This document shows positions 3,001-26,564 of a stretch of 64,000 nucleotides of DNA, one piece after another. The notes under the pieces are model-generated. The model saw only the letters and a program-made list of their open reading frames with translations, was not told the origin of the DNA and made no database searches. The DNA comes from Squalus acanthias (taxonomy: Eukaryota): positions 5,644,001-5,708,000 of the forward strand of contig JASTWF010000033.1 of assembly GCA_030390025.1 (NCBI GenBank). Reading direction: 5' to 3'. The translations under genes were made by a program, and so were the position numbers. Every line of letters starts with the position of its first letter. Position 1 is the first letter of the stretch.

Positions 3001-4568
3001 AGATCCAGACAGCTCATTCACAGACACAGACTGTTCCATTCACAGATCCAGACAGCTCCATTTACAGACTCAGACAGCTCCATTCACAGACCCAGACAGC
3101 TCCATTCACAGACCCAGACAGCTCATTCACAGACACAGATAGCTCCATTCACAGACACAGACAGTTCCATTCACAGATCCAGACAGCTCCATTCACAGAA
3201 CCAGACAGCTCCATTCACAGACCCAGACAGCTCATTCACAGACACAGACAGTTCCATTCACAGATCCAGACAGCTCCATTCACAGACACAGACAGCTCCA
3301 TTCAAAGACCCAAACAGCTCCATTCACAGACCCAGACAGCTCCATTCACAGACCCAGACAGCTCCATTCACAGACTCAGACTGCTCCATTCACAGACTCA
3401 GTCAGCTCCATTCACAGACCCAGACAGTTCCATTCAGAGAACCAGAGAGCTCCATTCAGAGACTCAGACAGCTCCATTCACAGACCCAGACAGTTTCATT
3501 CAGAGACCCAGACAGCTCCATTCACAGACCGAGATCGCTCCATTCAGAGACTCAGACAGCTCCATTCACAGACTCAGACATCTCCTTTCACAGACCCAGA
3601 CAGATCCATTCACAGACTCAGGCAGCAACGTTCACAGACATGGAAAGCTAATTTGAAAAAAACAGACAGCTCATTTCACGAACAGATTCAGACAATTCAT
3701 TTGACAGACCCAGACATCTGCATTCAGAAACTCATAAAAGCTAATTTCAGACACTCAGACAGCTCCATTTAAAGATCCAGACGGCTGACTTCAAAGACTC
3801 TGAAAGCTCAGGTCACTGACCCAGACAGCTCCATTAACAAAGTCAGACAGCTCTATTCACAGACCCAGACAACTCCATTTTCAGACCCAGAAAGCACATT
3901 TCACAGATCCAGACAGCTCATTCACAGACCCAGACAGCTCCATTCACAGACCCAGACAGCTCATTCACAGACACAGATAGCTCCATTCACAGAAACAGAC
4001 AGTTCCATTCACAGTTCCAGACAGCTCCATTCACAGAACCAGACAGCTCCATTCACAGACCCAGACTGCTCATTCACAGACACAGATAGCTCCATTCACA
4101 GACTCAGAGAGCTCAATTCACAGACCCAGACAGCTCATTCACAGACACAGACAGTTCCATTCACAGATCCAGTCAGCTCCATTCACAGACACAGACAGCT
4201 CCATTCAAAGACCCAAACAGCTCCATTAACAGACCCAGACAGCTCCATTTACAGACTCTGACAGCTCAATTCACCGACACAGACTTCTCCATTCAGAGAC
4301 CCAGACAGCTCCATTTACAGACTCTCGCAGCTCCATTCACAGACCCACACAGCTCGATTTACAGACCCAGACAGCTCCATTCACAGACCCAGACAGCTCC
4401 ATTCACAGACTCAGACAGCTCCATTCTCAGACGCAGACAGCTCCATTCACAGAACCAGACATCTCCATTCACAGACTCAGACAGCTCCATTCACATACCC
4501 AGACCACTCCATTCACAGATCCAGACAGCTCCATTCACAGAACCAGACAGCTCCATTCACAGACCCCA
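1..4568 (+). repeat. 22-bp satellite (consensus CAGACAGCTCCATTCACAGACC) with ~0.9-kb and ~2.3-kb higher-order periods; runs off the left edge
   Basis: Continuous tandem monomers. Variant block GAAAGCTAATTTGAAAAA recurs at ~421, ~1314, ~2741 and ~3643, and CCGAAAGTTTATTT recurs at 1 and 2299. Confidence 0.97.
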
Positions 4569-4569
4569 T

Positions 4570-7222
4570 ATGTGGAATCAATATGGGTTGAGCTGCAGAA
4601 CACCAAAGGGCAGAAAACGTTAGTGGGGGTTGTGTACAGACCTCCAAACAGTAGTAGTGAGGTGGAGGAGTGTATGAAACAGGAAATCAGAGGTGCATGC
4701 AAAAAAGGCGCAGCAGTTATCATGGGTGACTTTAATATGCATATAGATTGGGCTACTCAAACTGGAAGCAATACGGTGGAGGAGGATTTCCTGGAGTGTC
4801 TAAGGGATGGTTTCCTAAACCAATATGTTGAGGAACCAACTAGAGGGGAGGCCATCCTGGACTGGGTGTTGTGTAATGAGGAAGGACTAATTAGCAATCT
4901 TGTGGTGCGAGGCCCCTTGGGGAAGAGTGACCATAGTATGGTGGAGTTCTACATTAGGATGGAGAAGGAAACAGTTAACTCAGAGACCATGGTCCAGAAC
5001 TTAAATAAGGGCAACTTTGAGGGTATGAGGCGTGAATAGGCGAGGTTAGATTGGCAAGCGATATTTAAGGGGTTATCAGTGGAAGGGCAATGGCAGACAT
5101 TTAGAGACCGCATGGATGAACTACAGCAATTGTACATCCCTGTCTGGCGTAAAAATAAAAAATGGAAGGTGGCTCAACCATGGCTAAGAAGGGAAATCAG
5201 GTATAGTATTAAAAGCAAGGATGTGGCATACAAATTGGCCAGAAGTAGCAGCAAACCCGGGGACTGGGAGAACTTTAAAACTCAGCAGAGGAGGACGAAG
5301 GGTTTGATTAGGGCAGGGAAAATAAAATATGAAAGGAAGCTTGCGGAGAACATTAAAACGGACTGCAAAAGCTTCTATAAATATGTAAAAAGAAAGAGGT
5401 TAGTAAAAACAAACGTAGGTCCCCTGCAGTCAGAAACAGGGGAAGTCATAATGGGGAACAAAGAAATGGCAGATCAATTGAACAAGTACTTTGGTTCGGT
5501 GTTTACTGTGGAGGACACAAACAACCTTCCGAAAATAAAAGAGATCAAAGGATCTGGTAAGAGGGTGGAGCTGAGGGAAATCCTTATCAGTCGGGAAAAG
5601 GTGTTGGGGAAATTGATGGGACTGAAGGCTGATAAATCCGCAGGGCCTGATGGCCTGCATCCCAGAGTACTTAAGGAGGTGGCCTTGGAAATAGTGGATG
5701 CATTGACGATCATTTTCCAACATTCCTTAGACTCTGGATCAGTTCCGAAGGAGTGGAGGGTGGCTAATGTAACCCCTCTTTTTAAAAAAGGAGGGAGGGA
5801 GAAAGCAGGGAATTATAGACCGGTCAGCCTGACATCGGTGGTGGGTAAAATGATGGAATCAATGATTAAAGATGTCATAACAGACCATTTGGAAAGTGGC
5901 GACATGATAGGTCCAAGTCAGCATGGATTTGTGATAGGGAAATCATGCTTGACAAATCTTCTGGAATTTTTTGAGGATGTTTCCAATAGGGTGGACGGGG
6001 GGGGGGAACCAGTAGATGTGGTGTATTTGGACTTTCAGAAGGCCTTCGACAAGGTCCCACACAAGAGATTGGTGTGCAAAGTTAAAGCGCATGGGATTGG
6101 GGGTAATGTGTTGACGTGGATTGAGAACTGGTTGGCACACAGGAAACAAAGAGCAGGAGTAAATGGGTACTTTTCAGAATGGCAGGCAGTGACCAGCGGG
6201 GTACCGCAGGATTCGGTGCTGGGGCCGCAGCTGTTCACATTATATATTAATGATTTGGACGAAGGGATTAATTGTAATATCTCCAAATTTGCGGATGACA
6301 CTAAATTGGGAGGCAGTGTGAAAAATGAGGAGGATGCTAGGAGGCTACAGAGTGACTTGGACAGGTTGGGTGAATGGGCAAATGTATGGCAGATGAAGTA
6401 CAATGTGGATAAATGTGAGGTTATCCACTTTGGTGGTAAAAATAGGGAGGCAGACTATTACCTGAATGGTGGCAGATTAGGGAATGGGGAGGTGCAAGGA
6501 GACCTGGGCGTCATGGTACATCAGTCACTGAAGGTGGGAAGGCAAGTGCAGCAGGCAGTCAAGAAAGCAAATGGCATGATGGCCTTCATAGCAAGGGGAT
6601 TTGAGTACAGGAGTAGGGAGGTGATGCTACAGTTGTACAGGGCCTTGGTGAGGCCACACCTGGAGTATTGTGTGCAGTTTTGGTCTCCTAACTTGAGGAA
6701 GGACATTCTTGCTATTGAGGGAGTGCAACGAAGGTTCACTAGATTGATTCCTGTGATGGCCAGACTGACATATCAAGAAAGACTGGATCAACTGAACTTG
6801 TATCCTCTGGAGTTCAGAAGAATGAGGGGGGATCTTATAGAGACGTTTAAAATCCTGACTGGTTTAGACAAATTAGATGCGGGCAGAATGTTTCCAATGT
6901 TAGGGAAAACTAAAACCAGGGGTCACAGTCTAAGGATAAAGGGGAAGCCATTTAAGACTGAGATGAGGAGGAACTTCTTCACCCAGAGAGTGGCGAATCT
7001 GTGGAATTCTCTACCACAGAAGGTTGTTGAGGCCAGTTCGCTAAATATATTCAAAAGGGAGTTAGATATAATACTCACAACTAGGGGGATCAAGGGGTAT
7101 GGCGAGAAAGCAGGAATGGGGTACTGAGGTAGCATGTTCAGCCATGAACGCATTGAATGGCGGTGCAGGCTCGAAGGACCGAATGGTCTATTCCTGCACC
7201 TATTTTCTATGTTTCTATGTTT
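4570..7222 (+). mobile_element. 5'-truncated CR1 LINE, near-identical family to the full-length copy at 13473-17932
   Basis: APE motifs (GDFN, SDH), RT motifs (YLDFQKAFD, KFADD) and a 3' UTR ending in (CTATGTTT)n. One premature TAG at 5037-5039. Confidence 0.97.
4572..7127 (+). pseudogene. CR1 ORF2 (endonuclease-RT), 5'-truncated, one internal stop
   Basis: ORFs 4572-5039 and 5079-7127 are in the same frame and align to the intact 978-aa ORF2. Confidence 0.95.
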
Positions 7223-7462
7223 CCTATTTCTAACTTCAGACGGCAGATCCCCCTCGAACTGCCTTTCTGCCGCTGTTAAACTATCCTTGATTAACAATGC
7301 TACTCCTCCACCTTTCTTACCACCTTCCCTACTCTTACTGAAACATCTATACCCCGGAACTTCCAACAACCATTCCTGTCCCTGTTCCAACCATGTCTCC
7401 GAAATGGCCACCACATCGTAGTCCCAAGTACCAATCCACGCTCCAAGTTTTCCTACCTTATT
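7220..7462 (-). mobile_element. Short fragment of a different CR1 family (APE endonuclease N-terminus)
   Basis: Translates YDVVAISETWL...GGGVALLIKD...EVRNRK. Confidence 0.85.
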
Positions 7463-7711
7463 CTTACAAGAATTTTGTAAAAAGCAAATCTTCATTTATA
7501 TATCAAGCCATTTGATATTTTTCTGGACTGGACTTTCTTGGGGAATGTTTGTGGCGTGTTTCATAGCACATCCTGCTGTGGGATCTTACTCTCCCCTTAA
7601 TCAAAACTCAAACAAGACAAGACATTTGTTAAAGAAAAAGTATATGTTATATTTTTTAAATTATTTTCAGAGTAATACATTTGATTGTTTTCTGGTCTGG
7701 GCTTTATGAGG
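7463..7711 (-). repeat. Inverted fragment of the ~1.8-kb repeat unit found at 20838-25672
   Basis: Reverse complement matches CCACAAACATTCCCC...AGTCCAGAAAAATATCAAATGGCTT...TTTTACAAAATTCTTG of the array units. Confidence 0.9.
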
Positions 7712-8529
7712 TGCAGTAACCAAAATTAAATCACACTTTAGGTTAATGTTAGAATATGTATAATATAGCATCAATGTACAGTGTTGAGTTGGCAAATTAA
7801 TCCATGCCGAGTTAAACGGTAGACAGGTCTGTATTCATTAGACAAGACTAAGATGGTGGGAAATTAAACTGCAGAGTCAGCTGCAGAGTATGACTCGTGG
7901 GAAAATTAGGGAGGATACCTACTCAGCAAGGCAGGATAACACGCATACAAGATAACATACATAAGGATTGAGTGACGATGTTGCCCGAGATGGCCTTCGC
8001 TTGTTGTGAAGCTACAACATGGCTGACCAGAAGACAAAATGGCTTACATCGAAGTCAAGTTGAACTAATTATACTATGCTTGCTTTGCAAAAGTACATGA
8101 GCAGGTCACAAGGTCAGAATCTATGCTTTGAAGAGATTGTGACTCTCAGACTACACGAATAGATAAGAAAGAAGGCCACGATGATAGAGGGGTAGGGATA
8201 AGTCAATTAAGCTAAAACATGGTTGACTGCAGAATGTAGGAAGAAAGCATAAAAATGTCACGCGGTAGAAGTAATGGATATAATGGAATACTAGACACCA
8301 TGATGGATAAATTTGTACCCTCCCCTAGGGCAGGATGAGACTGATAAGATTGTGTATAAAAATGTAATTTACTAAGCTGTCGTTGGAGTCAGATCCAAGA
8401 GCGGTCTTGGAAGGTTCTCCCCAGGCCTGTGAATAAAGATCGTTTTGAACCATCATTCGAAGTCTGTCATCTGTACTGAAGCTAAGCGTCGACCTTGTAT
8501 ATCACTTGGTCCGCTGATTGCTTAGAACA
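7712..8529 (+). repeat. ERV-A 5' LTR (~818 bp)
   Basis: TGCAGTAACC...CTTAGAACA, with TATAAAA at 8355 and AATAAA at 8432. Direct repeat of 19930-20750. Confidence 0.96.
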
Positions 8530-8531
8530 AT

Positions 8532-8549
8532 TGGCGTAGTTGGCAGGAT
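8532..8549 (+). promoter_or_regulatory. Primer-binding site, tRNA-Ser
   Basis: TGGCGTAGTTGGCAGGAT lies 2 nt after the LTR and is complementary to the vertebrate tRNA-Ser 3' end (ATCCTGCCGACTACGCCA) with one G:U pair. Confidence 0.92.
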
Positions 8550-8588
8550 CACAGACTCTGACCAGTCCACAGGAACATTAATCTAAGA

Positions 8589-8597
8589 AGGGTGAGT
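8589..8597 (+). promoter_or_regulatory. Candidate major splice donor of ERV-A (candidate env acceptor TTTTTACAG|G at ~13265)
   Basis: AGG|GTGAGT shortly after the PBS, the usual retroviral position. Confidence 0.6.
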
Positions 8598-8984
8598 ATA
8601 TTTTAAATTACCACCCATAAATTAGAAAGCTCAGAACGTACTGTGAGATCTGGTAAGGCTGTGATTAAAAGGACCAAAATTTTAAAAAAAAGACAGACTC
8701 GAGGAAGTGGTGCAGTCTGATAAGCCGGGAAGGCGGCAAAATCCTCCAAGTAAAATTGGATCCTTGAGAGTCACGGGGTGATCGACACAGACAAGGGTGT
8801 TGAAATATCTCAAACACCTAGCCTGAGCCCGAATTAATAGGACGTAGTCCCACGTGACGGCCAGGATCAAGTAGATGTAGGGAACTAATAACACCACAGG
8901 ATCGTGACCCCGTGACTAAGTGTGTGTGGGTGAATGATAAAGTAACATAAGAACCACTGAGAAGTAAGTCAGAAGTTATATAGA

Positions 8985-9368
8985 ATGCCTAAAAAGGATG
9001 TAGAAATAAAGGAGGAGGGACCGTCCCCTTGGGGAGATCCCGACTCCGTCACTCGCTATTTAGTGGACAAAAATTAGAAACTCATTGAAACTATGAAAAA
9101 GAAATGGCGGGATCCCGAGGGCAGCGCAGAGAGCCAAAGGGCTTGGTGGAGGGGACAAACCAAAGATAAAGAAGGAAAAAGATCTAATTTGCAGGCTAAC
9201 CAATCTGAAAACTCAGCAAAGGAAGAAAAAAAAAGAGATTTGGAAAGCCAGGAAAAGCTGCTGAGACAATCATGTAAAAAGGAAAAATACAAAGTGAAAT
9301 TTAAAGTTTTACCGACATGGAAGTTATTAATGTCTGTGCCGAGACAAATAAAACACAAGATTTGCTGA
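8985..9368 (+). pseudogene. gag: ERV-A gag N-terminal relic
   Basis: MPKK...WGDPDSVTRYLVDKN*KLIETMKKKWRDPEGSAESQRAWWRGQ aligns with the ERV-B Gag start WGPMGSLTTFYADNRKGLVDKMTKEGWDP...QREWWEGQ. Confidence 0.75.
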
Positions 9369-10200
9369 GTGAAAGGAATCTTAAAAGGAATGCTGGGATC
9401 TCAGTTTGTGTGAAATTGTGATATAAAAGTGAGAAAGTTTCCAGACTGTGACTGTTTAAGGAGTTACAGTATTGCTTTTGTCTGAAAGTCTCTCTTTAAA
9501 AAAGTATCCGTCATTTTTGTTTTAGCTCCACCCACTCTTTTGTACACAGAGCGAAAAGCTGTTTAACCCTTTGAAGACTTGTCTTCAATGATAGTCAAGC
9601 GTGTGTTGTTTTAAGTTTGTTAATTGCTTTACAAAAGATAAGCTTCAGCCTTGAAGTCACAGTTGCCAACGTGACTGGAAGAAAATGAATTTGAATATTT
9701 ACAAGGCATGGGTAATTGTTTCTTTGTTAATATGGTTTCTTTCTTTTCCAAGTGATACTGGTTAGTTTAAAAAAAATGATCTGGATTGAATTGGAGTTAT
9801 TGAGGTTAATTAACCTATTAAAACCAGACTTTTGTTGTGGCCACGGTGAAATTGTGGTTGGTGTAAATTTGTGTAGACCGCATCGAATAAGATTGTGCAC
9901 CTAGAATTGAAACAAAATTTCAAACTGCAATCTAAGTAAAGCTGGTGTGTAAAAACTGAGAAGAAAAACAAAAAGTTTGTTTAACAAAAGATTAAGTTTC
10001 AGTCTAAGATTTAACCTTGGAGTGGCAGCTGCTATGGTGAAATCCTCCAAAGCAATTTGATTAAATGTGAAAAACTAATTTTTCTCCAGTTGTAAGCAAC
10101 AACTTTAGTATTGCTGAATGAAATTTAAAGATATTGGACATTATTAAATTTAAGTGTCTTCATTTTAAGTTAATATTTCCCCACAGTGACGGAAGGAAAA

Positions 10201-11780
10201 TTAAGATTCGATAAATTACCCCTTGGGCTCTTAAACAGAACGATATCAGATAGCCGGAAAGCAAAGTGGGAAGCAATCCTCCTACGAAGAGATAGATCAG
10301 TATAAATAGAAAAACATACAGGAATAAACCCAGCATCCGGAATATTAACAGAAGGGTATGAGCATAGTTGCCAAGTAAAAATAGAGGAAGAAGTAAGTAG
10401 TGGGGTAAAAGAGAACCCCCTCGATGACCCGGATGAAGTATTATTCGTGGATGGATGAAGAAAATACATAAATGGGAAACTTGGAACAGGATGGGCCGTA
10501 GTAAATGAGGAGGGGGAAACCTTAATGACTGGAGCACTACAGGGGGATAAATCAGCACAGGTGGCTGAATTGGTGGCCCTGATCAATGCATTAGAATCAG
10601 CAAAGGACAAAAAGTGAACATATACACGGACAGTTGATACGCATTTGAGGTGGTTCATGATTATATGGCTTCGTGGGCTTGAAGGGAATATGTAACCTCA
10701 ACCGGAGAGGTAGTAAAACATGGAAAACTAATAGAAAGGCTAGTGAAGGCCGCGCAGGCACCCCTGGAGGCAGCCGTAATAAAAGTTAAAGCTCTTACTA
10801 AGATAGGGGAAGGCTCAAGGGAAGCTCGAGATCTGCCCCTGCTAGGAAACCGATCTGCTGACACAGCAGCGAAAAGGGCCGCAGAGGACCTAAGGCCAGA
10901 ACCAGCCTTTAGGACCGAAGTAAACATGGTAATGGCCACTAGCGGAATAAAGGAGGTAAACGTAGCTGAGGTCCAACAGGACGTTAGCACAGAGGAAAAA
11001 GAAAGATGGAAGCAGGCGGGGGCACAAAAGCAGGATGAGATATGGAAATGGGGACCACGGAATCAGGTAGTAGCACCCGAGTGCTGCAGGCAACAACTGC
11101 TGACACTATATCACGGTATAACCCACACTGGGAGGAGTAGCATGCTACACCTACTATCCCAATACTGGTGGTGGCCCGGAAAGGGAAGGGATGTGGCAAA
11201 GCATTGCCAGAAATGTATAATATGTGCTAGAAATAATGTGGGACGAGGCTGTAAGGTAACGATGGGAAACCAACCGAGACCACAGGGGCCCTGGGAAAAC
11301 TTACAAATCGACTTTACCGGACCACTAGCCCAGGACAGAGGAAAGAAGTACTGCCCTGTAATAATTGACCAATTTACCAGATGGGTGGAAGCCTTTGCCA
11401 CCCGAGACTGCTCAGCAAGGAGAGTAGCATAAATACTGGCCAGTGAAGTAATACCCAGATGGGGAGTCCCACTCCAAATTGACTCTGATAATGGTACGCA
11501 TTTTACTGGGAAAATAATGAAGGAAACTTGTAAGTTGCTAGGGATAACCCAGAAGTATCACATCCCGTACCACCCGCAGAGCTCCGGGATGGTGGAAAGA
11601 ATGAATAGAACCTTAAAAACCACCCTGGCAAAGGCAATACAGGAAACCGGAAAAGGGTGGTCAGAATTAACCCCCAGTATACTATTGAGATTAAGAGCAA
11701 CCCGGGACGAGTAACCGGACTAACAGCCTATGAATTAATGACAGGCAGAGCAATGAGGCTACCAGAAGACCTACTAGGCA
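10201..11780 (+). pseudogene. pol: ERV-A pol relic: end of tether, RNase H and first integrase (HHCC + D,D35E); stops and frameshifts
   Basis: LFVDG*...SAQVAELVAL...VNIYTDS*YAF (RNase H), then H-x3-H...C-x2-C, QIDFTG, IDSDNG and SGMVERMN. Confidence 0.92.
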
Positions 11781-13002
11781 GTAAACAAGGTCGAAACAGA
11801 ACCAGAAACGCAGATAGACATAGCTGCTATTACTGCCCTGCCAGAGAATATAGACATATCCAAATTACATAAGGAATTATCCCAAGAGGAGAAGCAGCTA
11901 TGGGAACGAAGAGGTGCAAGAGAAAGGGCGGGGGGAATATGGAGAAAAGAGCAGCAAATATGTAAACCAAGCTGTATACAACAAGAATTAATTAAATTGT
12001 ACCATGGTAGACAACACGCAGGTATATCCAATATGTTAAACAACCTCCAGCGATGCTGGTGGAGGCCCGGAATGAAACAAGCTGTGGACAGATTCTGTAG
12101 ACACTGCCCCATATGTGCACAGTATAACATAGGGAAACCTGTCAAGGTAAAGTGGGGACATGAGCCGAGACCAAGAGGCCCATGGGAACAGTTGCAGATA
12201 GACTTCACTGGACCCTTACCAGAAGCAAAAGGAAAAACATATTGTTTGGTAATAATTGATCAATTTACTAGATGGGTTGAAGCATATGCCACTAGAGATT
12301 GTACAGCTACAACAGTGGCACAAATAATGGCAGAGGAAGTAGTGCCACGATGGGGAGTCCTGGTACAAATTGATTCAGACCAGGGAACGCATTTTACGGG
12401 AAAGGTCATAAAAGAGTCATGTGCATTATTAGGTATCAGAAAGAGGTTCCACATACCATACCACCCTCAGAGTTCAGGGATGATAGAAAGGATGAACCGG
12501 ACATTGAAATTATCCTCAGCTAAGGCAATAGAAGACACAGGAAAAGGATGGGCAGAATTACTTCCAAGTATACTAATGAGACTTAGGGCAACTCCGAATA
12601 AAACTACGGGGCTGACACCATTTGAACTGACGAGCAATGATACTGCCAGAAGGGGTCGTTACCGGGAGAGAGGATGTAGGGCCCCTGGAAGACAGAATCA
12701 GGAGATTTATTAAACAATTGTGTACGCAATTGCACGCTCTCAGACATGAGGCCAAAGACCAAAAGATTATACGGGATCTAGAACAGGATACACGGGACGA
12801 TCAGAAGGAGGTCCCAGCAATAGGTAGCAAGGTGATGGCAAAGATAATACCAACCAAACCAGAGCTAGCACCCAGATGGTCAGGACCTTACGAAGTATTA
12901 ATGAACAGTGACACATGCGCTTGTATAGATGAATTCGGAACGGGTAAAGGAAGCTGGAAACACTGGACTCAGTTAAAGGTATATAACAAGACTAATGAGT
13001 AG
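11781..13002 (+). pseudogene. pol: ERV-A second integrase (HHCC + D,D35E + C-terminal GPY domain); one frameshift near 12630
   Basis: YHGRQH...CPIC, QIDFTG, IDSDQG, SGMIERMN and PRWSGPY. Confidence 0.92.
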
Positions 13003-13192
13003 ACCAGAGATAGCGCCTTTTGACGAGAGTGAGGAGTATGTGCGAAAGTATGAAAAATGGAAGGAGGATGCTATACATATAGTAATACTAGGGCTGTGTG
13101 TGATGTTAATATTATATGTCGTGATATGTATCTTCAAGTATATCTGGAAACAGCCACAGACCAAGAAACGAACAATTTGTACAACATCTTGA
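12995..13192 (+). CDS. Small 65-aa single-TM ORF between pol and env (candidate accessory protein)
   Basis: ATG overlaps the pol stop. Hydrophobic AIHIVILGLCVMLILYVVICIF is followed by basic KYIWKQPQTKKR. Confidence 0.5.
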   Translation: MSRPEIAPFDESEEYVRKYEKWKEDAIHIVILGLCVMLILYVVICIFKYIWKQPQTKKRTICTTS

Positions 13193-13265
13193 ACTGGTAG
13201 AACAAATAAGAATAGAATAATCCTAATCGGCTGGTGACAACTGGCCGCTTTGTCTATTTTTACAG

Positions 13266-13472
13266 GAACGATATACTTGTAAGAAGAGGAAGTGGAGCAT
13301 CGTTTGCGCCCTCATCGGGATTTTATGGCTAAGTATAAGCCATGAGTCTAGTGGGAGGCGCAAGCAACTCGGGATTTTATGGTTAAGTATACGGCCCGAG
13401 TCTGTTGGGAATAAAGAGGGAGGGAGGCGCTGTCCAGCAGGATTTTCAGTATGTAGTAATGAAATCTGTACA
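13266..13472 (+). pseudogene. env: Probable env 5' part, upstream of the CR1 insertion
   Basis: Open frame after the splice acceptor: KKRKWSIVCALIGILWLSI (signal-like)...RCPAGFSVCSNEICT. Confidence 0.55.
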
Positions 13473-13574
13473 TACATAGAAACATAGAAACATAGAAAAT
13501 AGGTACAGGAGTAGACCATTCGGTCCTTCGAGCCTGCACCGCCATTCAATGCGTTCATGGCTGAACATGCTACC

Positions 13575-16511
13575 TCAGTACCCCATTCCTGCTTTCTCGC
13601 CATACCCCTTGATCCCCCTAGTTGTGAGTGTTATATCTAACTCCCTTTTGAATATATTTAGCGAACTGGCCTCAACAACCTTCTGTGGAAGAGAATTCCA
13701 TAGATTCACCACTCTCTGGGTGAAGAAGTTCCTCCTCAGCTCAGTCTTAAATGGCTTCCCCTTAATCCTTAGACTGTGACCCCTGGTTCTAGTTTTCCCT
13801 AACATTGGGAACATTCTGCCCGCATCTAATTTGTCTAAACCAGTCAGGATTTTAAATGTCTCTATAAGATCCCCCCTCATTCTTCTGAACTCCAGAGGAT
13901 ACAAGTTCAGTTGACCCAATCTTTCTTGATATGTCAGTCCGGCCATCCCAGGAATCAATCTAGTGAACCTTCGCTGCACTCCCTCAATAGCAAGAATGTC
14001 CTTCCTTAAGTTAGGAGACCAAAACTGCGCACAATACTCCAGGTGTGGCCTCACCAAGGCCCTGTACAACTGCAGCATCACCTCCCTACTCCTGTACTCA
14101 AATCCCCTTACTATGAAGGCCATCATTCCGTTTGCTTTCTTGACTGCCTGCTGCACTTGCATTCCCACCTTCAGTGACTGATGTACCATGACGCCCAGGT
14201 CTCGTTGCACCTCCCCTTTCCCTAATCTGCCACCATTCAGGTAATAGTCCGCCTCTCTATTTTTACCACCAAAGTGGATAACCTCACATTTATCCACATT
14301 GTACTTCGTCTGCCATACATTTGCCCATTCACCCAACCTGTCCAAGTCACTCTGTAGCCTCCTAGCATCCTCCTCATTGTTCACACTTCCTCCCAATTTA
14401 GTGTCATCCGCAAATTTGGAGATATTACATTTAATCCCTTCGTCCAAATCATTAATATATAATGTAAACAGCTGGGGTCCCAGCACCGAACCCTGCGGTA
14501 CCCCGCTGGTCATTGCCTGCCATTCTGAAAAGTACCCATTTACTCCTACTCTTTGTTTCCTGTGTGCCAACCAGTTCTCAATCCACGTCAACACATTACC
14601 CCCAATCCCATGTGCTTTAACTTTGCTCACCAATCTCTTGTGTGGGACCTTGTCGAAGGCCTTCTGAAAGTCCAAATACACCACATCTACTGGTTCCCCC
14701 CTGTCCACCCTATTGTAAACATCCTCAAAAAATTCCAGAAGATTTGTCAAGCATGATTTCCCTTTCACAAATCCATGCTGACTTGGACCTATCATGTCGC
14801 CACTTTCCAAATGGTCTGTTATGACATCTTTAATAATTGCTTCCATCATTTTACCCATGACCGATGTCAGGCTGACCGGTCTATAATTCCCTGCTTTCTC
14901 CCTCCCTCCTTTTTTAAAAAGAGGGGTTACATTGGCCACCCTCCACTCCATCGGAACTGATCCTGAGTCTAAGGAATGTTGGAAAATGATCGTCAATGCA
15001 TCCACTATTTCCAAGGCCACCTCCTTAAGTACTCTGGGATGCAGACCATCAGGCCCCGGGGATTTTTCAGCCTTCAGTCCCATCAATTTCCCCAATACCT
15101 TTTCCCGACTAATAAGGATTTCGCTCAGCTCCTCCCTCTTACCAGATCCTCTGACCCCTTTTATTTCCGGCAGGTTGTGTGTGTCCTCCACAGTAAACAC
15201 CGAACCAAAGTACTTGTTAAATTGATCTGCCATTTCCTTGTTCCCCATTACGACTTGCCCTGTTTCTGACTGCAGGGGACCTACGGTTGTTTTTACTAAC
15301 CTCTTTCTTTTTACATATTTATAGAAGCTTTTGCAGTCCATTTTAATGTTCTCTGCAAGCTTCCTTTCATATTTTATTTTCCCTGCCCTAATCAAACCCT
15401 TCGTCCTCCTTTGCTGAGTTTTGAAGTTCTCCCAGTCCCCGGGTTTGCTGCTACTTCTGGCCAATTTGTATGCAACTTCCTTGGTTTTAATACTATCCCT
15501 GATTTCCCTTGTTAGCCATGGTTGAGCCACCTTCCCTTTTTTATTTTTACGCCAGACCGGGATGTACAATTGTTGTAGTTCATCCATGCGATCTCTAAAT
15601 GTCTGCCATTGCCCTTCCACTGATAGCCCCTTAAATATCGCTTGCCAATTTAACCTCGCCAATTCACGCCTCATACCCTCAAAGTTGCCCTTATTTAAGT
15701 TCTGGACAATGGTCTCTGACTTAACTGTTTCCTTCTCCATCCTAATGTAGAACTCCACCATACTATGGTCACTCTTCCCCAGGGGGCCTCGTACCGCAAG
15801 ATTGCTGATTAGTCCTTCCTCATTACACAACACCCAGTCCAGGATGGCCTCCCTTCGAGTTGGTTCCTCAACATATTGGTTTAGGAAACCATCCCTTAAA
15901 CACTCCAGGAAATCCTCCTCCACCGTATTGCTTCCAGTTTCAGTAGCCCAATCTATATGCATATTAAAGTCACCCATGATAACTGCCGTGCCTTTTTTGC
16001 ACGCACCTCTGATTTCCTGTTTCATACCCTCCCCCACCTCACCACTGCTGTTTGGAGGTCTGTACACAACTCCCACTAACGTTTTCTGCCCTTTGGTGTT
16101 CTGCAGCTCAACCCATATTGATTCCACATCCTCCAAGCTGATGTCCTTCCTAGCTATTGCATTAATCTCCTCTTTAACCAGCAATGCTACCCCACCCCCT
16201 TTTCCTTTTATTCTATCCTTTCTGAATGTTGAATACCCCTGGATGTTCAGTTCCCAGCCTTGATTGTTCTGGAGCCACGTCTCTGTAATCCCAATCACAT
16301 CGTATCCGTTAACATCTATTTGCACAGTCAATTCATCCACCTTATTACGGATACTCCTTGCATTAAGACACAGAGCCTTTAGGCTTATTTTATTAACATC
16401 CTTTGTCCTTTTAGACTTATGATTTAGTATGGCCCTTTGTGTTTCTTGCCTTTGTTTACTCGGCCTTCCCCTATTGTTTCTCACCCTTCTAACATTTGTT
16501 TCTGACTGCAT
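13575..16511 (-). CDS. CR1 ORF2p, APE endonuclease + reverse transcriptase, 978 aa
   Basis: NARS, GITETWL, GDFN, SDH, QHGF, YLDFQKAFD, GVPQGSVLGP and KFADD are all present. Confidence 0.97.
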   Translation of the reverse strand: MQSETNVRRVRNNRGRPSKQRQETQRAILNHKSKRTKDVNKISLKALCLNARSIRNKVDELTVQIDVNGYDVIGITETWLQNNQGWELNIQGYSTFRKDRIKGKGGGVALLVKEEINAIARKDISLEDVESIWVELQNTKGQKTLVGVVYRPPNSSGEVGEGMKQEIRGACKKGTAVIMGDFNMHIDWATETGSNTVEEDFLECLRDGFLNQYVEEPTRREAILDWVLCNEEGLISNLAVRGPLGKSDHSMVEFYIRMEKETVKSETIVQNLNKGNFEGMRRELARLNWQAIFKGLSVEGQWQTFRDRMDELQQLYIPVWRKNKKGKVAQPWLTREIRDSIKTKEVAYKLARSSSKPGDWENFKTQQRRTKGLIRAGKIKYERKLAENIKMDCKSFYKYVKRKRLVKTTVGPLQSETGQVVMGNKEMADQFNKYFGSVFTVEDTHNLPEIKGVRGSGKREELSEILISREKVLGKLMGLKAEKSPGPDGLHPRVLKEVALEIVDALTIIFQHSLDSGSVPMEWRVANVTPLFKKGGREKAGNYRPVSLTSVMGKMMEAIIKDVITDHLESGDMIGPSQHGFVKGKSCLTNLLEFFEDVYNRVDRGEPVDVVYLDFQKAFDKVPHKRLVSKVKAHGIGGNVLTWIENWLAHRKQRVGVNGYFSEWQAMTSGVPQGSVLGPQLFTLYINDLDEGIKCNISKFADDTKLGGSVNNEEDARRLQSDLDRLGEWANVWQTKYNVDKCEVIHFGGKNREADYYLNGGRLGKGEVQRDLGVMVHQSLKVGMQVQQAVKKANGMMAFIVRGFEYRSREVMLQLYRALVRPHLEYCAQFWSPNLRKDILAIEGVQRRFTRLIPGMAGLTYQERLGQLNLYPLEFRRMRGDLIETFKILTGLDKLDAGRMFPMLGKTRTRGHSLRIKGKPFKTELRRNFFTQRVVNLWNSLPQKVVEASSLNIFKRELDITLTTRGIKGYGEKAGMGY

Positions 16512-16558
16512 ATTACTTCCCCCTGTTTCGCTACATAGGTTCCCCTTCCCCTGCCATA

Positions 16559-17503
16559 TTAGTTTAAATCCTCCCGAACTGCTTTAGCAAATATTACCCC
16601 GAGGACATCGGTTCCAGTCCTGCCCAAGTGCAGACCGTCCCTTTTGTACAGGTCCCACTTCCCCCAGAACTGGTTCCAATGCCTCAGGAATTTGAATCCC
16701 TCCCTCCTGCACCACTGCTCAAGCCACGTATTCAATCTCACTATCCTGTTCTCTCTATTCTGATTAGCACGTGGCCCTGGTAGCAATCCAGAGATTACTA
16801 CCTTAGAGGTCCTACTTTTTAATTTAGCTCCTAGCTCCCTAAATTCAGCTTGTAGGACCTCTTCCCGCTTTTTACCTATATCGTTGGTACCTACATGCAC
16901 CACGACAGCTGGCTGTTCACCCTCCCTCTTCAGAATGTTCTGCAGCCGCTCCGAGACATCCTTGACCCTTGCACCAGGGAGGCAACATACCATCCTGGAA
17001 TCTCGGTTGCGGCCACAGAAACTCCTGTCTATTCCCCTTACAATTGAGTCCCCTATCACTATAGCCCTACCACTCTTTTTCCCGCCCTGCTGTGCAGCAG
17101 AGCCAGCCATGGTGCCATGAACCTGGCTGCTGGTGCCTTCCCCTGGTAGGCCATCTCCCCCAACAGTATCCAAAGCGGCATACCTGTTTTGGAGGGAGAT
17201 GACCACAGGAGACTCCTGCACTACCTTCCTGATATTGCCCTGCTTCTTGGTCACCCATACACTGTCTGTCCTAGCCTTTACCTGCGGTGTGGACAACTCA
17301 CTAAATGAGCGATTCACTGAGTTCTCGGCATCGTGCATGCTCCAGAGTGAGTCCACCCGCAGCTCCAGCACCGCCATGCGGGCTGTCAGGAGCTGCAGCT
17401 GGACACACTTCCCGCACACGTAGTTGTCAGGGACACTGGAAGTGTCCCTGGTTTCCCACATGGCACAGGAGGAGCATGAAACGGGTCCGAGACTTCCTGT
17501 CAT
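16559..17503 (-). CDS. CR1 ORF1p (CxxC...CxxC zinc finger, coiled coil, SGNH esterase-like domain), 314 aa
   Basis: CSSC...CGKC, VIGDSIVRG, HVGTNDI and DGLHL motifs typical of esterase-type CR1 ORF1. Confidence 0.93.
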   Translation of the reverse strand: MTGSLGPVSCSSCAMWETRDTSSVPDNYVCGKCVQLQLLTARMAVLELRVDSLWSMHDAENSVNRSFSELSTPQVKARTDSVWVTKKQGNIRKVVQESPVVISLQNRYAALDTVGGDGLPGEGTSSQVHGTMAGSAAQQGGKKSGRAIVIGDSIVRGIDRSFCGRNRDSRMVCCLPGARVKDVSERLQNILKREGEQPAVVVHVGTNDIGKKREEVLQAEFRELGAKLKSRTSKVVISGLLPGPRANQNRENRIVRLNTWLEQWCRREGFKFLRHWNQFWGKWDLYKRDGLHLGRTGTDVLGVIFAKAVREDLN

Positions 17504-17932
17504 GACTTAACCCTTATGTTACTTTATTACTAAAATTTAAACTTATTTATCTTAGGTCCAGGAGTTAAGTCCCTGAAAACAAAATATAAAATCGAACCTA
17601 CCTTTTAAATTCCCTCTACCCCTAAAGGTTAGAGGAGGTGGGAGGGTGGGAGTCACTACTCGTGTAGTGTCTCGGGTTTAGCAACCGCTCCACCTATATA
17701 CGGGTACCAATGAATTGGCCCCGCCCCCTGCCTTTGAAAAAGCCCGCGAAGCTCTTACCCCGCTGGGGAAAAAGGCCACGTAGGTGAGTTTATTGACTCA
17801 CCTCAGGCCTCTGCTGCTCCAACCAGGTCCGCTCCTCCTTCCCCGCTGCCGACCGCTCTGTGGGAGAGAGAAAGAAAGAAAGGCTCCTCCTCCCCCGCTG
17901 TCGACGCTGGTCTGAGGCCTACCTGAGCCTCG

Positions 17933-19796
17933 GTACAATGAGAGTGGTAGGAGGACCAGATACGGGAACGGAGGATACGGGTACCACCGGAGTGTGTGGT
18001 TAAGATGATCCCCGGACAATGGGGCTCGTGTTTAAACGGCACCTTCTGTTTGAAATACATAACAAGTACAACAACGACGACGCCCTCCCCGATAACTACA
18101 ACAACCATCCCGCCAGCTCTCACATCCACAACCCCACTAACGTGCCCGTCAATGGAAAAAGGAGCTAGAGGGGTTTTAGTAATAAGAAAAACACAACATG
18201 AGGTGTATTTTAGTGTGACACATAGAGTTATTAAACTTGCTATCAGTATGAGTACTTTTACTATGCCTGCGATGTGTAACAATCATACAAGACAATTATG
18301 GGACTCCCTGTGGGTAAAACAATTAGAGGGCCCACAGGGAAAATCTATCTTACAAAAACGTAAGAAACGGGGAATATTGGAAATGGTCGGAGCAGGGTAT
18401 GCGGCCGGGTTAGCAACAGTTAATAGTTTGGATATAGAAGGATTAATGAAGGAGTAGAAGAACTACAAGCAAAAATAGAGAAGTTACTAAAACAAGCCAC
18501 TGGAAATAGCCAGCAAATGGCACTGGCGGGAAAACAAACGACAACACAATTGTTAGGGGTGGAAGAGATAGTAGCCCCCCATGCAAAAACAACTAATACA
18601 ATTATTGATCAGATCAGCAATGCATCACGCCAAACCCATAAGGAATTGGTATGTGCCATGTATGGTTCATGGCTATTGTCAAATGCTCAGCATAACCCGC
18701 AGCAAATAAATAGTGGACAGATCCCTGATTGGATTACTAATAAGGACCTGGAACCTTGGATTGACACAAATAAAGCCTATGCAAAGGGTGTAAAATGGGA
18801 CAAATATACAGGGCAGGCAATTGCCTGACCCCATGGACTAAGATAATTGGCTTTGTACTGACCATCCCACAACTCCCTGAAGAAGGACAGGCCCAATATG
18901 ATGTGAGTAATATAGGGGAGGTACAAAGGGAGAGTTGGGTTAAATATTATGATGTCCCCACAAAGGCAATTTGGGAAAGGAGCAAAGATAATAATCAGAA
19001 GAATGGAACCTTAAGTGGGGTGGTGATGGATGGGTGCCACCACAAGGGAAGGACATGGGTGTGCACGCAGCCCCCCACCGAGGGAGACACAGCCAAGTGC
19101 TGATTTACAAAAACCATCAATTGCACCCTTGAGATACACCCAAGGGTGATACACCGAACAAGGGTAGCACCAGAGAACAACGGGACATTTTGTGTCACCA
19201 CAGCTGAACAGAAATATGAGTATCAAGATCTGACTTGTCCCATTCCCCAGCCAAACTATTGTTTCTACCCAAAAAATACCTACACAGATAGGACACCAGT
19301 ATATACACCCACCAAGACCACAAGAGGAGAAAACCTGGTCACTCAATAATATGGAACTTAAGAGAATGATTGAAACTTATGTCACACCAGAGCCCAAGGC
19401 AATTCCCAAGTTAGAGGAAGAAAAGCTTGGAAGAAATTACAGTAGGAAACGAAGGCCTTTTTAAAGCATTATCATAAAATAGAAGAAGATTTAAAAGAAC
19501 AACTTAAAGACATTAGTAAAACCTTAGCAGAAACTCCTTGGTACAATAAGATCTGGAACTGGGGACTAAATGTGAATATACATCCATGGATCAGGATCAT
19601 GTCGCATGTGCTAGTTGTAGTTCAATTATTACTATCCTTATACATTCTGATTGATTTAAGCAGGAGATATCGCAGACCGAGAATGAAAACCCTAGCCAAA
19701 CGAGTGAAGAAGGAGGAAGAGAAAGACGAACTGTTGCTAAATACTAACAAACAAGGGGTAGGGCGTGAGAAGAATTATTATGAAAACTGTGTTTAG
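17933..19796 (+). pseudogene. env: ERV-A env (several stops/frameshifts): Thr/Pro mucin-like stalk, furin site RKKR, fusion peptide, heptads, Cys-rich region, Trp-rich juxtamembrane segment, TM helix
   Basis: KRKKR|GILEMVGAGYAAGLATVNSLDIE near 18360; TPWYNKIWNWG...IMSHVLVVVQLLLSLYILI near 19540-19650. Confidence 0.88.
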
Positions 19797-19917
19797 GATT
19801 GTGCAAATATGAGTACTAGACACCCTGGGCTGGTACCACCAGGGCGACGGGAACTCATAACAAACAATCTTAAACTGTAGTATATTGGCCATATTGGGTC
19901 AAGGTGACCAATGGGCC

Positions 19918-19929
19918 AAAAGGGGGGAA
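19918..19929 (+). promoter_or_regulatory. Polypurine tract
   Basis: AAAAGGGGGGAA immediately before the 3' LTR. Confidence 0.9.
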
Positions 19930-20750
19930 TGCAGTAACCAAAATTAATATCATACTTTAGGTTAATGTTAGAATATGTATAACATAGCATCAATGTACAG
20001 GGTGGAGGTGGCAAATTAATCCATGCCCTGAGTTAAACGGTAGACAGGTCTGTATTCATTGGACAAGACTAAGATGGTGGGAAATTAAACTGCAGAGTCA
20101 GCTGCAGAGTATGACTCGTGGGAAAATTAGGGAGGATACCTACTCAGCAAGGCAGGATAACACGCATACAAGATAACATACATAAGGATTGAGTGACGAT
20201 GTGGCCCGAGGTGGCCTTCGCTTGTTTGTGAAGCTACAACATGACTGACCAGAAGACAAAATGGCTTACATCGAAGTCAAGTTGAACTAATTATACTATG
20301 CCTGCTTTGCAGAAGTACATGAGCAGGTCACAAGGTCAGAATCTGTGCTTTGAAGAGATTGTGACTCTCAAACTACACGAATAGATAAGAAAGAAGGTCA
20401 GATGATAGAGGGGTTGGGATAAGTCAATTAATAAAAACATGATTGACTGCAGAATGTGGGAATAAAGCATAAAAATGTCATGCGGTAGAAGTAATGGATA
20501 TAAGGGATATACTAGACACCATGATGGATAAATTTGTACCCGCCCTTAGGGCAGGATGAGACTGATAAGATTATGTATAAAAATGTAATTTACGAAGCTG
20601 TCGTTGGAGTCGGATCCAAGAGCGGTCTTGGAAGGTTCTCCCCAGGCCTGTGAATAAAGATCGTTTTGAACCATCATTCGAAGTCTGTCATCTGTACTGA
20701 AGCTAAGCGTCGACCTTGTATATCACTTGGTCCGCTGATTGCTTACATCA
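19930..20750 (+). repeat. ERV-A 3' LTR (~821 bp)
   Basis: TGCAGTAACC...CTTACATCA, roughly 95-97% identical to the 5' LTR by eye. Confidence 0.96.
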
Positions 20751-20782
20751 ATTGTCTAACTATCTGTAGAAAGTATATTTTT

Positions 20783-20837
20783 TACTGAAGCTAAGCGTCG
20801 ACCTTGTATATCATTGGTCCGCTGATTGCTTACATCA
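20783..20837 (+). repeat. Duplicated terminal ~55 bp (U5 end) of the LTR
   Basis: TACTGAAGCTAAGCGTCGACC...GCTTACATCA is repeated 32 nt after the LTR end. Confidence 0.93.
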
Positions 20838-21828: not shown

Positions 21829-22040
21829 GAAATAAAATCAGAAAATGCTGGAAATACTCAGCAGGTAAGGCAGCATCTGTGGAGAGAGAGAGAAACAGAG
21901 TTAATGTTTCAGTTCGATTACCTTTTGTCAGATTCTGGCAAGGTTCAGACGAAAGGTCATCGAGCTGAAACATTTACTCTGTATCTCTACTGATGCTGCC
22001 TAAAATACTGAGTATTTCCAGCATTTTCTGTTTTTATTTC
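21829..22040. mobile_element. ~210-bp foldback element made of two inverted Penelope-type termini
   Basis: Arms CAGAAAATGCTGGAAATACTCAG / CTGAGTATTTCCAGCATTTTCTG match the Penelope end at 27700-27805. Confidence 0.8.
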
Positions 22041-26423: not shown

Positions 26424-26564
26424 CTGAACACAAAAGGAGAGAGAAACAAACTGAATCAGAGCCCGGATCTGATATATTTTCCTCTCTCGGATATTACAGC
26501 AATCACTGAAAGTACTTCAGGCCATTAATAACCCGGTTTCCCCCCGCGAATTCGCCCCTTGGCG

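What the first reader, a model, noticed from the sequence alone, without database searches (positions are those of the whole stretch)
10950..13002. Retrovirus with two diverged integrase domains in tandem
Seen: after RNase H, ERV-A encodes a full HHCC + D,D35E integrase lacking the C-terminal domain. It is followed immediately by a second full HHCC + D,D35E integrase that carries the GPY C-terminal domain. Both keep all three catalytic residues with exact 35-aa spacing, yet they differ at many positions (WWWPGKGRDVAKHCQKCIIC vs WWRPGMKQAVDRFCRHCPIC), so this is not a recent local duplication. After correcting a 1-nt loss near 11702, IN2 sits one frame away from IN1 at the junction (~11775-11790). 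Known: retroviral Pol normally has a single IN. Inference: either a lineage with a dual-IN Pol (covalent heterodimer or frameshift-controlled second IN), or a template-switch chimera of two related viruses.
Basis: partly seen in the sequence, partly recalled or inferred. Interest (0 to 1): 0.85.

Follow-up and report, generated by a model that had tools for sequence, protein, structure and literature searches.

The report
Defective recombinant provirus with two integrases
The two integrase genes in a row are real, but they sit in a broken hybrid of two related endogenous retroviruses that was copied with outside help, so this is not a virus that uses two integrases.

Summary
Window 10950-13002 carries two integrase (IN) units, each with an HHCC finger and a D,D35E core. 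They are about 72% identical in DNA and 58% in protein.

The structure is a mosaic provirus (7712-20757):
- LTRs, leader, IN2 and env come from lineage B.
- A patch at 9164-11777 (a repeat segment, RNase H, and IN1 without its C-terminal domain) comes from lineage A.

Both lineages occur elsewhere in the genome as ordinary single-IN elements. The IN1|IN2 breakpoint is at 11777/11778, and IN2 lies +1 out of frame with IN1.

The junction occurs 10 times in the assembly. Eight copies are segmental copies of one insertion. Two (C3, C19) are separate integrations with their own 5-bp target duplications.

All ten copies lack gag, protease and RT. All ten also share a 1-nt deletion and a TGA in RNase H, and an 8-nt deletion between the IN2 core and its GPY domain. 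The hybrid was therefore already non-coding while it was still being copied.

Best reading: a recombinant formed by template switching and moved in trans by a helper. A working dual-IN Pol is not supported. It is an ordinary kind of element with an unusual look.

The parts
7712..8536 (+). 5' LTR (TG...CA), lineage-B type
   Evidence: Pairs with 19930-20757. Identity is 792 of 823 compared bases, 96.2%, and 95-96% to the LTR of the B-type element on C26.
8537..9181 (+). Leader with a PBS-like 18-mer and the start of the gag region, lineage-B type
   Evidence: The leader probe matches the B-type element on C26 at 88% only as far as query position 645, which is window 9181 (alignment).
9164..10227 (+). 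Segment X: non-coding, highly repeated internal segment shared with A-delta (L013) and many gag/RT-less ERV derivatives. The 5' crossover lies in the 18-nt purine tract 9164-9181.
   Evidence: 94% to L013 from 9164 on. No Pfam family in its ORFs. No tblastn match to B gag or pol. 2924 first-look candidates in the genome, and 40 of 40 scored are at least 91% identical. The crossover tract matches both parents.
10228..10682 (+). RNase H remnant, lineage A, with a 1-nt deletion at 10608 and a CGA>TGA change at 10635 shared by all 10 copies
   Evidence: tblastn of B pol; Pfam RNase_H/RVT_3 on 10459-10614; shared lesions.
10683..11777 (+). IN1 (lineage A): HHCC at 11112-11225; D at 11310, D at 11487, E at 11595. 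TAA at 11430; 1-nt deletion at 11700/11701. Ends where the C-terminal domain should begin.
   Evidence: 94% to A-type loci up to the junction. A-type loci continue into a GPY domain and env.
11777..11778 (+). IN1|IN2 breakpoint. The A part ends ...CTAGG and the B part starts at the RNase H/IN linker of lineage B. About 1 nt of microhomology; the B frame is +1 to the A frame.
   Evidence: Pairwise alignments to 4 A-type and 3 B-type loci. In the 91-nt probe, all 17 of 17 candidates were scored.
11778..12627 (+). IN2 N-terminal and core domains (lineage B): HHCC at 12003-12116; D at 12201, D at 12378, E at 12486. Open frame 11778-12713.
   Evidence: 92% to the B-type element on C26 from 11783.
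12628..13002 (+). IN2 C-terminal (GPY) domain, out of frame because of an 8-nt deletion at about 12627, found in every copy that could be aligned there
   Evidence: The gap is present in 8 of 8 aligned chimeric copies relative to B-type L011 and L015. c5 and c8 were left out of those alignments because large insertions disrupt IN2.
12977..13476 (+). Start of the lineage-B env region (short ORF with a membrane span), cut by the LINE
   Evidence: ORFs; collinear with the B-type element.
13477..17933 (-). CR1-like LINE inserted into env, private to the window copy
   Evidence: A 1002-aa ORF on the minus strand. All 9 other copies join 13476 directly to 17934.
17934..19929 (+). Rest of the lineage-B env (RKKR cleavage site, fusion-peptide-like stretch, membrane anchor), in several frames
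   Evidence: ORFs; 94.8% to the B-type element.
19930..20757 (+). 3' LTR, lineage-B type

Best explanation
The locus is a non-autonomous, mosaic class-I (MLV-like) endogenous retrovirus of a cartilaginous-fish-type genome. Its backbone (both LTRs, leader, IN2, env) comes from lineage B. A patch at 9164-11777 (repeat segment X, RNase H, and IN1 up to the end of the catalytic core) comes from an already gag/RT-less derivative of lineage A. It replaces B's gag-pro-RT-RNase H. The 3' crossover is non-homologous: it links the end of the IN1 core to the B RNase H/IN linker, about 890 nt out of register. This placed a second, heterologous IN behind the first. The 5' crossover lies in an 18-nt purine tract that both parents share. 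Most likely (inferred) both crossovers were template switches by reverse transcriptase between co-packaged A-type and B-type RNAs. The hybrid RNA kept B's LTR ends and leader. It could therefore be packaged, reverse-transcribed and integrated by proteins from a B-type helper (inferred), which gave at least three integrations (shown). One integration was later amplified eightfold by segmental duplication (shown). Neither IN was expressed as part of a Pol protein in the common ancestor of the surviving copies (shown from shared lesions and missing genes). The intact-looking catalytic motifs reflect recent descent from working parents, not selection on a two-IN enzyme.
For: (1) Parentage. The window is 94.2% identical to A-type L013 over 9164-11804 and no further. 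It is 92.4% (11783-13476), 94.8% (17934-20092) and 95-96% (LTR) identical to the B-type element on C26. The leader is B-like to 9181. In the tree, IN1 (10 rows) sits with A relatives (support 96/94) and IN2 (9 rows) with B relatives (100/99).
(2) Both parents are canonical at the breakpoint. A-type loci run on into a GPY C-terminal domain and env. B-type loci run from RT-RNase H into IN.
(3) Copying. The 91-nt junction probe gave 17 of 17 scored candidates: 10 with the junction, 4 A-type and 3 B-type. Eight junction copies share flanks beyond both LTRs. c9 (C3) and c10 (C19) have unrelated flanks, 5-bp target duplications (ACTCT, CTGCA) and LTR pairs 97.3% and 97.7% identical.
(4) IN1 and IN2 differ by about 28% in DNA, against 2.3-3.8% between LTR pairs. 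The join therefore predates integration.
(5) Non-coding state. No gag, protease or RT was found by Pfam in 21 ORFs or by tblastn with B gag and pol. The 1-nt deletion at 10608 and TGA at 10635 are in 10 of 10 copies and 0 of 3 A relatives. The 8-nt deletion at about 12627 is in 8 of 8 alignable copies and in 0 of 2 B relatives that cover the site. c9 and c10 also share a 2-nt deletion at 11284 and a 1-nt deletion at 12562, so an already broken genome was copied again.
(6) Codon-position differences in IN1 among the three insertions are flat (5/8/11, 8/10/10, 3/6/5).
(7) Mosaic ERVs with matching LTRs, the same internal mosaic and different flanks are the published criteria for re-integrated recombinants (PMC4724089, passages read). 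Template switching is known to give recombinants, deletions and duplications (PMC5086612, passages read).
Against: - No target-site duplication could be found for the window's own insertion (5' flank ...TGAGG, 3' flank ATTGT...). A 51-nt LTR-tail repeat follows the 3' LTR.
- No intact helper exists in this assembly: all 3 B-type loci found are themselves broken.
- Nothing here separates an RNA-level template switch from a DNA-level rearrangement of integrated proviruses followed by transcription and mobilisation.
- IN2 differs more between the window and c9/c10 (39-41 differences in 278 codons) than IN1 does (24-28 in about 360 codons). It also shows a mild third-position excess (13/7/19, 13/8/20). 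This could mean later exchange with B-type genomes or some past constraint. The neutral control (segmental copies, window vs c2) gave NG86 ratios of 0.67 and 0.34 on 9-13 differences, so these ratios cannot settle it.
- The TAA at 11430 has a patchy distribution (window, c7, c8, c9) that does not fit the copy tree.
Confidence: 0.85

Rival explanations
1. A retroviral lineage whose Pol really carries two integrases, made either as a fused heterodimer or with the second one reached by programmed frameshifting or readthrough.
For: Both units keep HHCC and D,D35E with identical spacing. The junction-bearing genome integrated at least three times. The 1-nt deletion at 11700 in the window family puts the first part of IN1 and IN2 in the same frame.
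Against: There is no gag, protease or RT in any of the 10 copies. A shared frameshift and a TGA lie upstream of IN1, and a shared 8-nt deletion lies in IN2. In the copies without the 11700 deletion, IN2 is +1 from IN1, whereas retroviral recoding is -1 or stop readthrough (recalled). In the window family, stops at 11715 and 11775 lie between the two. IN1 codon positions vary evenly.
Confidence: 0.02
2. The hybrid arose at the DNA level, by illegitimate recombination or deletion between integrated A-type and B-type proviruses. It was then transcribed and mobilised in trans.
For: The same end product is expected. The genome is crowded with related, recombining defective ERVs. The window family sits in a region prone to large duplications. 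About 1 nt of microhomology at 11777/11778 fits end joining as well as a polymerase jump.
Against: It needs two separate DNA breaks and joins that leave a B-A-B arrangement with both LTRs of B type. Co-packaging with two polymerase jumps gives this in one replication cycle. The 5' crossover lies in a short shared tract, as expected for a homology-guided template switch. No genomic locus with A and B proviruses side by side was seen, though none was searched for systematically.
Confidence: 0.12
3. Assembly artefact, or a nested insertion of one provirus into the integrase gene of another.
For: Repeat-rich region; many copies lie on small unplaced contigs.
Against: The junction is present in 10 copies that differ from each other by 1-5%, including two on chromosome-scale contigs. 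An 871-nt contig of public run X1 spans 11400-12200, though it may be from the same sample. There is no LTR at the junction. The B part starts at its RNase H/IN linker, not at an LTR edge.
Confidence: 0.01

Closest known systems
Harlequin and other mosaic human ERVs that re-integrated as recombinants (Vargiu et al. 2016, PMC4724089; passages read)
   Same: The internal sequence is patched together from different ERV groups, all in sense orientation. The same LTR is at both ends, with no internal LTR. Several copies share the same mosaic but have different flanks. The published explanation is co-packaging plus polymerase jumps, with defective recombinants moved by more complete 'midwife' elements.
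   Different: Here one crossover is out of register, so a whole homologous gene segment (IN N-terminal and core domains) is present twice, from two lineages. The host is a cartilaginous-fish-type genome. Copy number is small (3 insertions, 10 copies).
Non-autonomous ERVs mobilised in trans, such as mouse ETn by MusD (recalled; not checked in a paper here)
   Same: LTRs and leader are shared with a coding-competent relative. The element's own gag-pol is missing or broken. New insertions have target duplications.
   Different: ETn carries non-retroviral internal sequence. This element keeps recognisable but dead RNase H, two INs and env. No intact helper was found in this assembly.
Duplications and deletions made by reverse-transcriptase template switching in experimental retroviral vectors (Pathak and Hu 1997, seen only as cited in PMC5086612)
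   Same: A misaligned jump between templates creates a duplication at the jump point with little or no homology.
   Different: Those are intramolecular events within one virus, giving identical repeats. Here the two copies come from lineages about 28% apart in DNA, so the jump was between two different genomes.
Canonical gamma-type (MLV-like) retroviral Pol with a single IN
   Same: The RT/RNase H of the B-type relative is closest to MoMLV and XMRV RT among solved structures (E=5.7e-92). Each IN unit has the usual HHCC and DDE layout, and the parents have a GPY C-terminal domain.
   Different: There are two IN units, with the first truncated. The target duplications are 5 bp, whereas MLV makes 4 bp (recalled). 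The nearest database proteins are only 42-57% identical to IN2.

Membership tests
Re-integrated mosaic (recombinant) ERV, criteria of Vargiu et al. 2016 | Several copies with the same internal mosaic, all in sense orientation, but different flanks | tested here: met
   Ten copies share both breakpoints. There are three flank classes (window family of 8, c9, c10), and c9 and c10 have 5-bp target duplications.
Re-integrated mosaic (recombinant) ERV, criteria of Vargiu et al. 2016 | Same LTR at the 5' and 3' ends, and no third, unrelated LTR inside | tested here: met
   LTR pairs are 96.2-97.7% identical. No LTR-like repeat lies at 11777/11778 or elsewhere inside.
Infectious (autonomous) recombinant retrovirus | [quoted passage not shown] | tested here: not met
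   No gag, protease or RT by Pfam or tblastn. RNase H, IN1, IN2 and env are all interrupted.
Retroviral integrase (three-domain IN): IN1 | HHCC N-terminal domain, D,D35E core, C-terminal domain, in one open frame | tested here: not met
   The N-terminal domain and core are present. The C-terminal domain is absent because the A sequence stops at 11777. The frame is cut off upstream by a shared frameshift and TGA.
Retroviral integrase (three-domain IN): IN2 | HHCC N-terminal domain, D,D35E core, C-terminal domain, in one open frame | tested here: not met
   All three parts are recognisable. An 8-nt deletion in every alignable copy puts the C-terminal domain out of frame, and nothing upstream can deliver ribosomes in frame.
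   There is a +1 offset at the junction in c9 and c10, and stops at 11715 and 11775 in the window family. No recoding signal was searched for.
Class I (gamma/epsilon-like) ERV | RT/RNase H closest to MLV-type enzymes | tested here: met
   phmmer of the B-type 662-aa ORF against PDB sequences: MoMLV and XMRV RT, E=5.7e-92 to 1.3e-90. Foamy and HIV RT score far weaker. Tested on the B relative, not on the window copy, which has no RT.
Non-autonomous ERV moved by a helper | A coding-competent relative with the same LTR and leader exists and supplied the proteins | tested here: inconclusive
   The B-type element on C26 has a 351-aa gag ORF, a 947-aa pro-pol ORF, a 96% LTR and an 88% leader, but it is itself frameshifted in IN. 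Trans-mobilisation is inferred, not observed.

The most novel reading that the evidence does not exclude
When the hybrid first formed, before the shared lesions arose, it may have expressed a C-terminally truncated IN1 (finger plus core) beside helper-derived full IN. That fragment may have mattered: it could have joined mixed intasomes, or acted as a dominant-negative brake on the helper. In that case the tandem IN arrangement would have been kept for a reason rather than carried as dead cargo.
Probability: 0.03. Interest if true: 0.6.

Novelty: new member of a known kind. Interest (0 to 1): 0.22.

Why it matters
It removes a tempting false lead. Two intact-looking integrase units in one provirus do not indicate a new retroviral replication strategy here. 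It is also a clean natural example of an out-of-register recombination between two retroviral lineages about 28% apart in DNA. Both parents, both breakpoints and at least three later integrations are still readable in one genome. This shows that cartilaginous-fish ERVs form recombining swarms of defective elements, as primate and rodent ERVs do. For annotation, it warns that duplicated pol domains can inflate counts of 'intact' integrase genes.

Tried and rejected
- Expression. The look-up of sequencing runs listed no RNA holder, so nothing can be said about expression.
- Read support from other samples.
  - Only run X1 has a contig spanning 11400-12200, and X1 may be the assembly's own sample.
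  - In X2, an 86-nt contig reaches only 21 nt past the junction, below the 31 needed.
  - X2 and X6 show loose ends at 11783 that read like the B-type RNase H end.
  - X7 shows a contig stopping at 11778 and loose ends at 11781.
  - No bridging contig was listed for X2, X6 or X7. That is not evidence of absence.
- dN/dS by NG86. There were too few differences, and the neutral control (segmental copies) gave 0.34-0.67, so the ratios among chimeric copies (0.34-0.75) are not informative. Only the codon-position counts and the contrast with IN2 vs the B parent (0.14-0.17) are used.
- A first junction display without gaps was misaligned and was replaced.
- Target-site duplication for the window family: none found.
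- Possible intermediates. These are loci with the B-leader|X junction but no IN junction (C3501 twice, C12). The one I fetched (C3501) is a heavily deleted derivative that breaks off at 9893, so it says nothing about order of events.
- Pfam on the IN2 C-terminal piece and on env ORFs gave no significant family.
- Literature. A search for phrases such as 'two integrase domains', 'duplicated integrase' and 'tandem integrase' gave 58 papers. None of the 20 listed concerns a retroviral double IN. This is one search of open-access text only.
- Earlier notes of this scan: nothing near this place and nothing for the words tried.
- The identity profile is not used.
As a result only one A-type and one B-type element were examined beyond 3.3 kb.
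Full report
**What is at 10950-13002.** Stop-to-stop frames give the following pieces.
- An RNase H tail plus IN1 in frame 0: 10683-11432, then after a TAA, 11433-11714.
- The end of the IN1 core in frame 2: 11609-11872.
- IN2 in frame 0: 11778-12713.
- A GPY-containing C-terminal piece in frame 1: 12631-13002.

Pfam finds the integrase zinc finger and the rve core twice. Both units have H-x3-H...C-x2-C, two Asp residues 59 apart, and exactly 35 residues between the second Asp and the Glu. IN1 and IN2 share 145 of 251 aligned residues, and about 72% of about 455 nt.

**The provirus around it.** LTRs lie at 7712-8536 and 19930-20757 and are 96.2% identical. A CR1-like LINE on the minus strand (13477-17933) interrupts env. 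It is private to this copy, because all nine other copies join 13476 to 17934 directly. Between the 5' LTR and RNase H there is no gag, protease or RT:
- Of 21 plus-strand ORFs scanned, only one (10459-10614) hits RNase_H/RVT_3.
- tblastn with the gag and pol ORFs of a related complete element finds only RNase H, IN1 and IN2 here.

**Two parents.** A 601-nt probe across the junction found 10 full-length matches at 96-100% (40 of 328 first-look candidates were scored). It also found loci matching only the left part, up to window 11804, and others matching only the right part, from 11783. A narrower 91-nt probe, for which all 17 candidates were scored, gave the same 10 junction copies, 4 left-only (A-type) loci and 3 right-only (B-type) loci.

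- A-type loci are 93-95% identical to the window up to the junction. They then continue into a normal GPY C-terminal domain and an env gene.
- B-type loci carry RT-RNase H running into an IN that is 91-92% identical to IN2 from 11783 on.
- The B-type element on C26 has a 351-aa gag ORF with two CCHC knuckles and a 947-aa pro-pol ORF. Its downstream region is 94.8% identical to the window's env region, and its LTR is 95-96% identical to the window's LTRs.
- The A-type LTR is unrelated to the window's LTRs.
- The window's leader (8537-9181) matches that same B element at 88% and stops matching at 9181. Homology to A-type L013 starts at 9164.

The element is therefore B (LTR, leader) | A (9164-11777) | B (11778 to the 3' LTR).

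A maximum-likelihood tree of the IN core region had 39 rows. L029 and the IN2 of L008 gave no usable segment.
- All ten IN1 copies group with the A relatives (96/94), next to a larger family C.
- All nine IN2 copies group with the B relatives (100/99).
- The window's other ERV, at about 46.9 kb, is sister to the B group.

**The breakpoints.** At 11777/11778 the A sequence ends in ...CTAGG. The B sequence begins about 15 codons after the B RNase H domain, with about 1 nt of shared sequence. The A reading frame and the B reading frame differ by +1. The 5' crossover lies in an 18-nt purine-rich tract (9164-9181) that matches A-delta 18/18 and the B leader 16/18.

The A donor was itself already defective. 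L013 shares segment X (9164-10227) and small indels with the chimera, whereas L012 and L016 diverge upstream of 10237 and still read like the RT connection domain. Segment X is a very abundant repeat, with 2924 first-look candidates, and 40 of 40 scored were at least 91% identical.

**Was it copied?** Fetching 14 kb around the nine other junction copies gave two results.
- Seven copies share the window's flanks beyond both LTRs: left from 7233 or further, and right to at least 21392, with six of the seven reaching 23000. With the window they are one insertion amplified by segmental duplication.
- The copies on C3 (c9) and C19 (c10) have unrelated flanks. Homology starts and ends at the LTR edges. 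They have 5-bp target duplications (ACTCT, inside a roughly 33-nt satellite; CTGCA) and LTR pairs 97.3% and 97.7% identical.

No target duplication was found for the window family. LTR-pair divergence (2.3-3.8%) is far below the IN1/IN2 divergence (about 28%), so the two INs were already joined when the genome integrated. The structure meets the published criteria for a re-integrated mosaic ERV (PMC4724089, passages).

**Was a two-IN protein ever made by this lineage?**
- All 10 copies, and none of 3 A relatives, have a 1-nt deletion in an A-run at 10608 and a CGA>TGA change at 10635 in RNase H.
- All 8 copies that can be aligned there have an 8-nt deletion at about 12627. It separates the IN2 core from its C-terminal domain. 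It is absent from the 2 B relatives that cover the site. c5 and c8 have large insertions in IN2 and were left out.
- c9 and c10 share two further frameshifts, at 11284 and 12562.
- The window family shares the 1-nt loss at 11700.

An already broken genome therefore went through more than one round of copying. Where the 11700 base is present, the IN1 frame runs into the B part and stops at 11870. Where it is lost, stops at 11715 and 11775 separate IN1 from IN2.

Codon-position counts among the three insertions are flat for IN1 (5/8/11, 8/10/10, 3/6/5). They lean mildly to third positions for IN2 (13/7/19, 13/8/20, 4/3/8). IN2 against its B relative is strongly third-position biased (19/13/43, ratio 0.17), as expected for divergence under selection in a working virus. 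IN1 against A relatives is flat (13/18/13, 12/18/19). Counts are small, and the segmental-copy control gives ratios of 0.34-0.67, so I rely on the shared lesions rather than on these ratios.

**Mechanism.**
- Shown: mosaic parentage, breakpoints, at least three integrations, and a non-coding state in the common ancestor.
- Inferred: two template switches during reverse transcription of co-packaged B-type and A-delta RNAs, one guided by a short shared tract and one non-homologous and out of register. Propagation by proteins of a B-type helper, which recognises the shared leader and LTR ends, is also inferred.

Template switching is documented to give recombinants, deletions and duplications (PMC5086612, passages). 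A DNA-level origin of the hybrid, followed by the same mobilisation, cannot be excluded. No intact helper is present among the three B-type loci in this assembly.

**Comparison and novelty.** The RT/RNase H of the B relative is closest to MoMLV and XMRV RT among solved structures. The nearest database proteins to IN2 are 42-57% identical. Earlier notes of this scan describe this genome as shark-like, with other ERVs; I did not test that.

Mosaic, defective, trans-mobilised ERVs are well known (Harlequin, 'midwife' elements). What is unusual is only that the misaligned crossover left two heterologous IN units in tandem. I found no paper describing such a case in one phrase search. I rate it a new member of a known kind, of low to moderate interest.

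**Read evidence.** Only one public contig (run X1, possibly the assembly's own sample) spans the junction. Other runs show A-like and B-like ends at the breakpoint but no listed bridging contig. No RNA holder was listed.

Noticed in passing
window about 5700-23000 and G000 contigs C2561 (second copy 107.5 kb away), C3314, C3841, C3679, C3529, C146, C196: The provirus together with at least 0.5 kb of left flank and at least 0.6 kb of right flank (over 2 kb on the right in six of the seven other copies) is present eight times at 95-99% identity, mostly on small unplaced contigs. This is a segmental or macro-repeat amplification. Five copies (c2-c6) share a roughly 438-nt insertion in the 3' LTR near 20060.
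   Followed up: partly
window 9164-10227: Segment X upstream of RNase H is a very abundant repeat (2924 first-look candidates; 40 of 40 scored at least 91% identical). It lies next to IN genes of at least two lineages that differ by more than 20%, so it is exchanged among defective ERV families.
   Followed up: partly
window 13477-17933 (minus strand) and 5040-7127 (plus strand): Two copies of one CR1-like LINE family with long open ORFs (1002 aa and 695 aa). The first inserted into env only in the window copy, after the segmental duplication, so the family was active recently.
   Followed up: no
A gag fragment (B gag residues 41-222) abuts the end of RNase H and an IN that breaks off in the core at 46737. 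This is another internally deleted ERV, sister to the B/IN2 clade.
   Followed up: partly
window 8539-8556: The 18-mer TGGCGTAGTTGGCAGGAT just after the 5' LTR looks like a primer-binding site. From memory it resembles the complement of a tRNA-Ser 3' end. This was not tested.
   Followed up: no
window 20758-20837: A 51-nt repeat of the LTR tail lies 34 nt after the 3' LTR, and no target-site duplication flanks this provirus. The insertion site may have been rearranged, or may lie in an older LTR fragment.
   Followed up: no
L053 (G000:C3501:163275-167800): A derivative with the same B-leader|X junction that breaks off at window-equivalent 9893. It is followed by a 110-nt RT fragment, a LINE piece and a partial LTR. 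Two similar loci (C3501:126329, C12:77480020) were not examined.
   Followed up: partly
window 1-4000 and 26500-27400: Long arrays of 22-nt and 27-nt tandem repeats.
   Followed up: no
window 11430: The TAA in the IN1 core is present in the window, c7, c8 and c9 but not in c2-c6 or c10. This pattern does not follow the copy relationships and suggests recurrent mutation or gene conversion. Public contigs mostly read C there.
   Followed up: no
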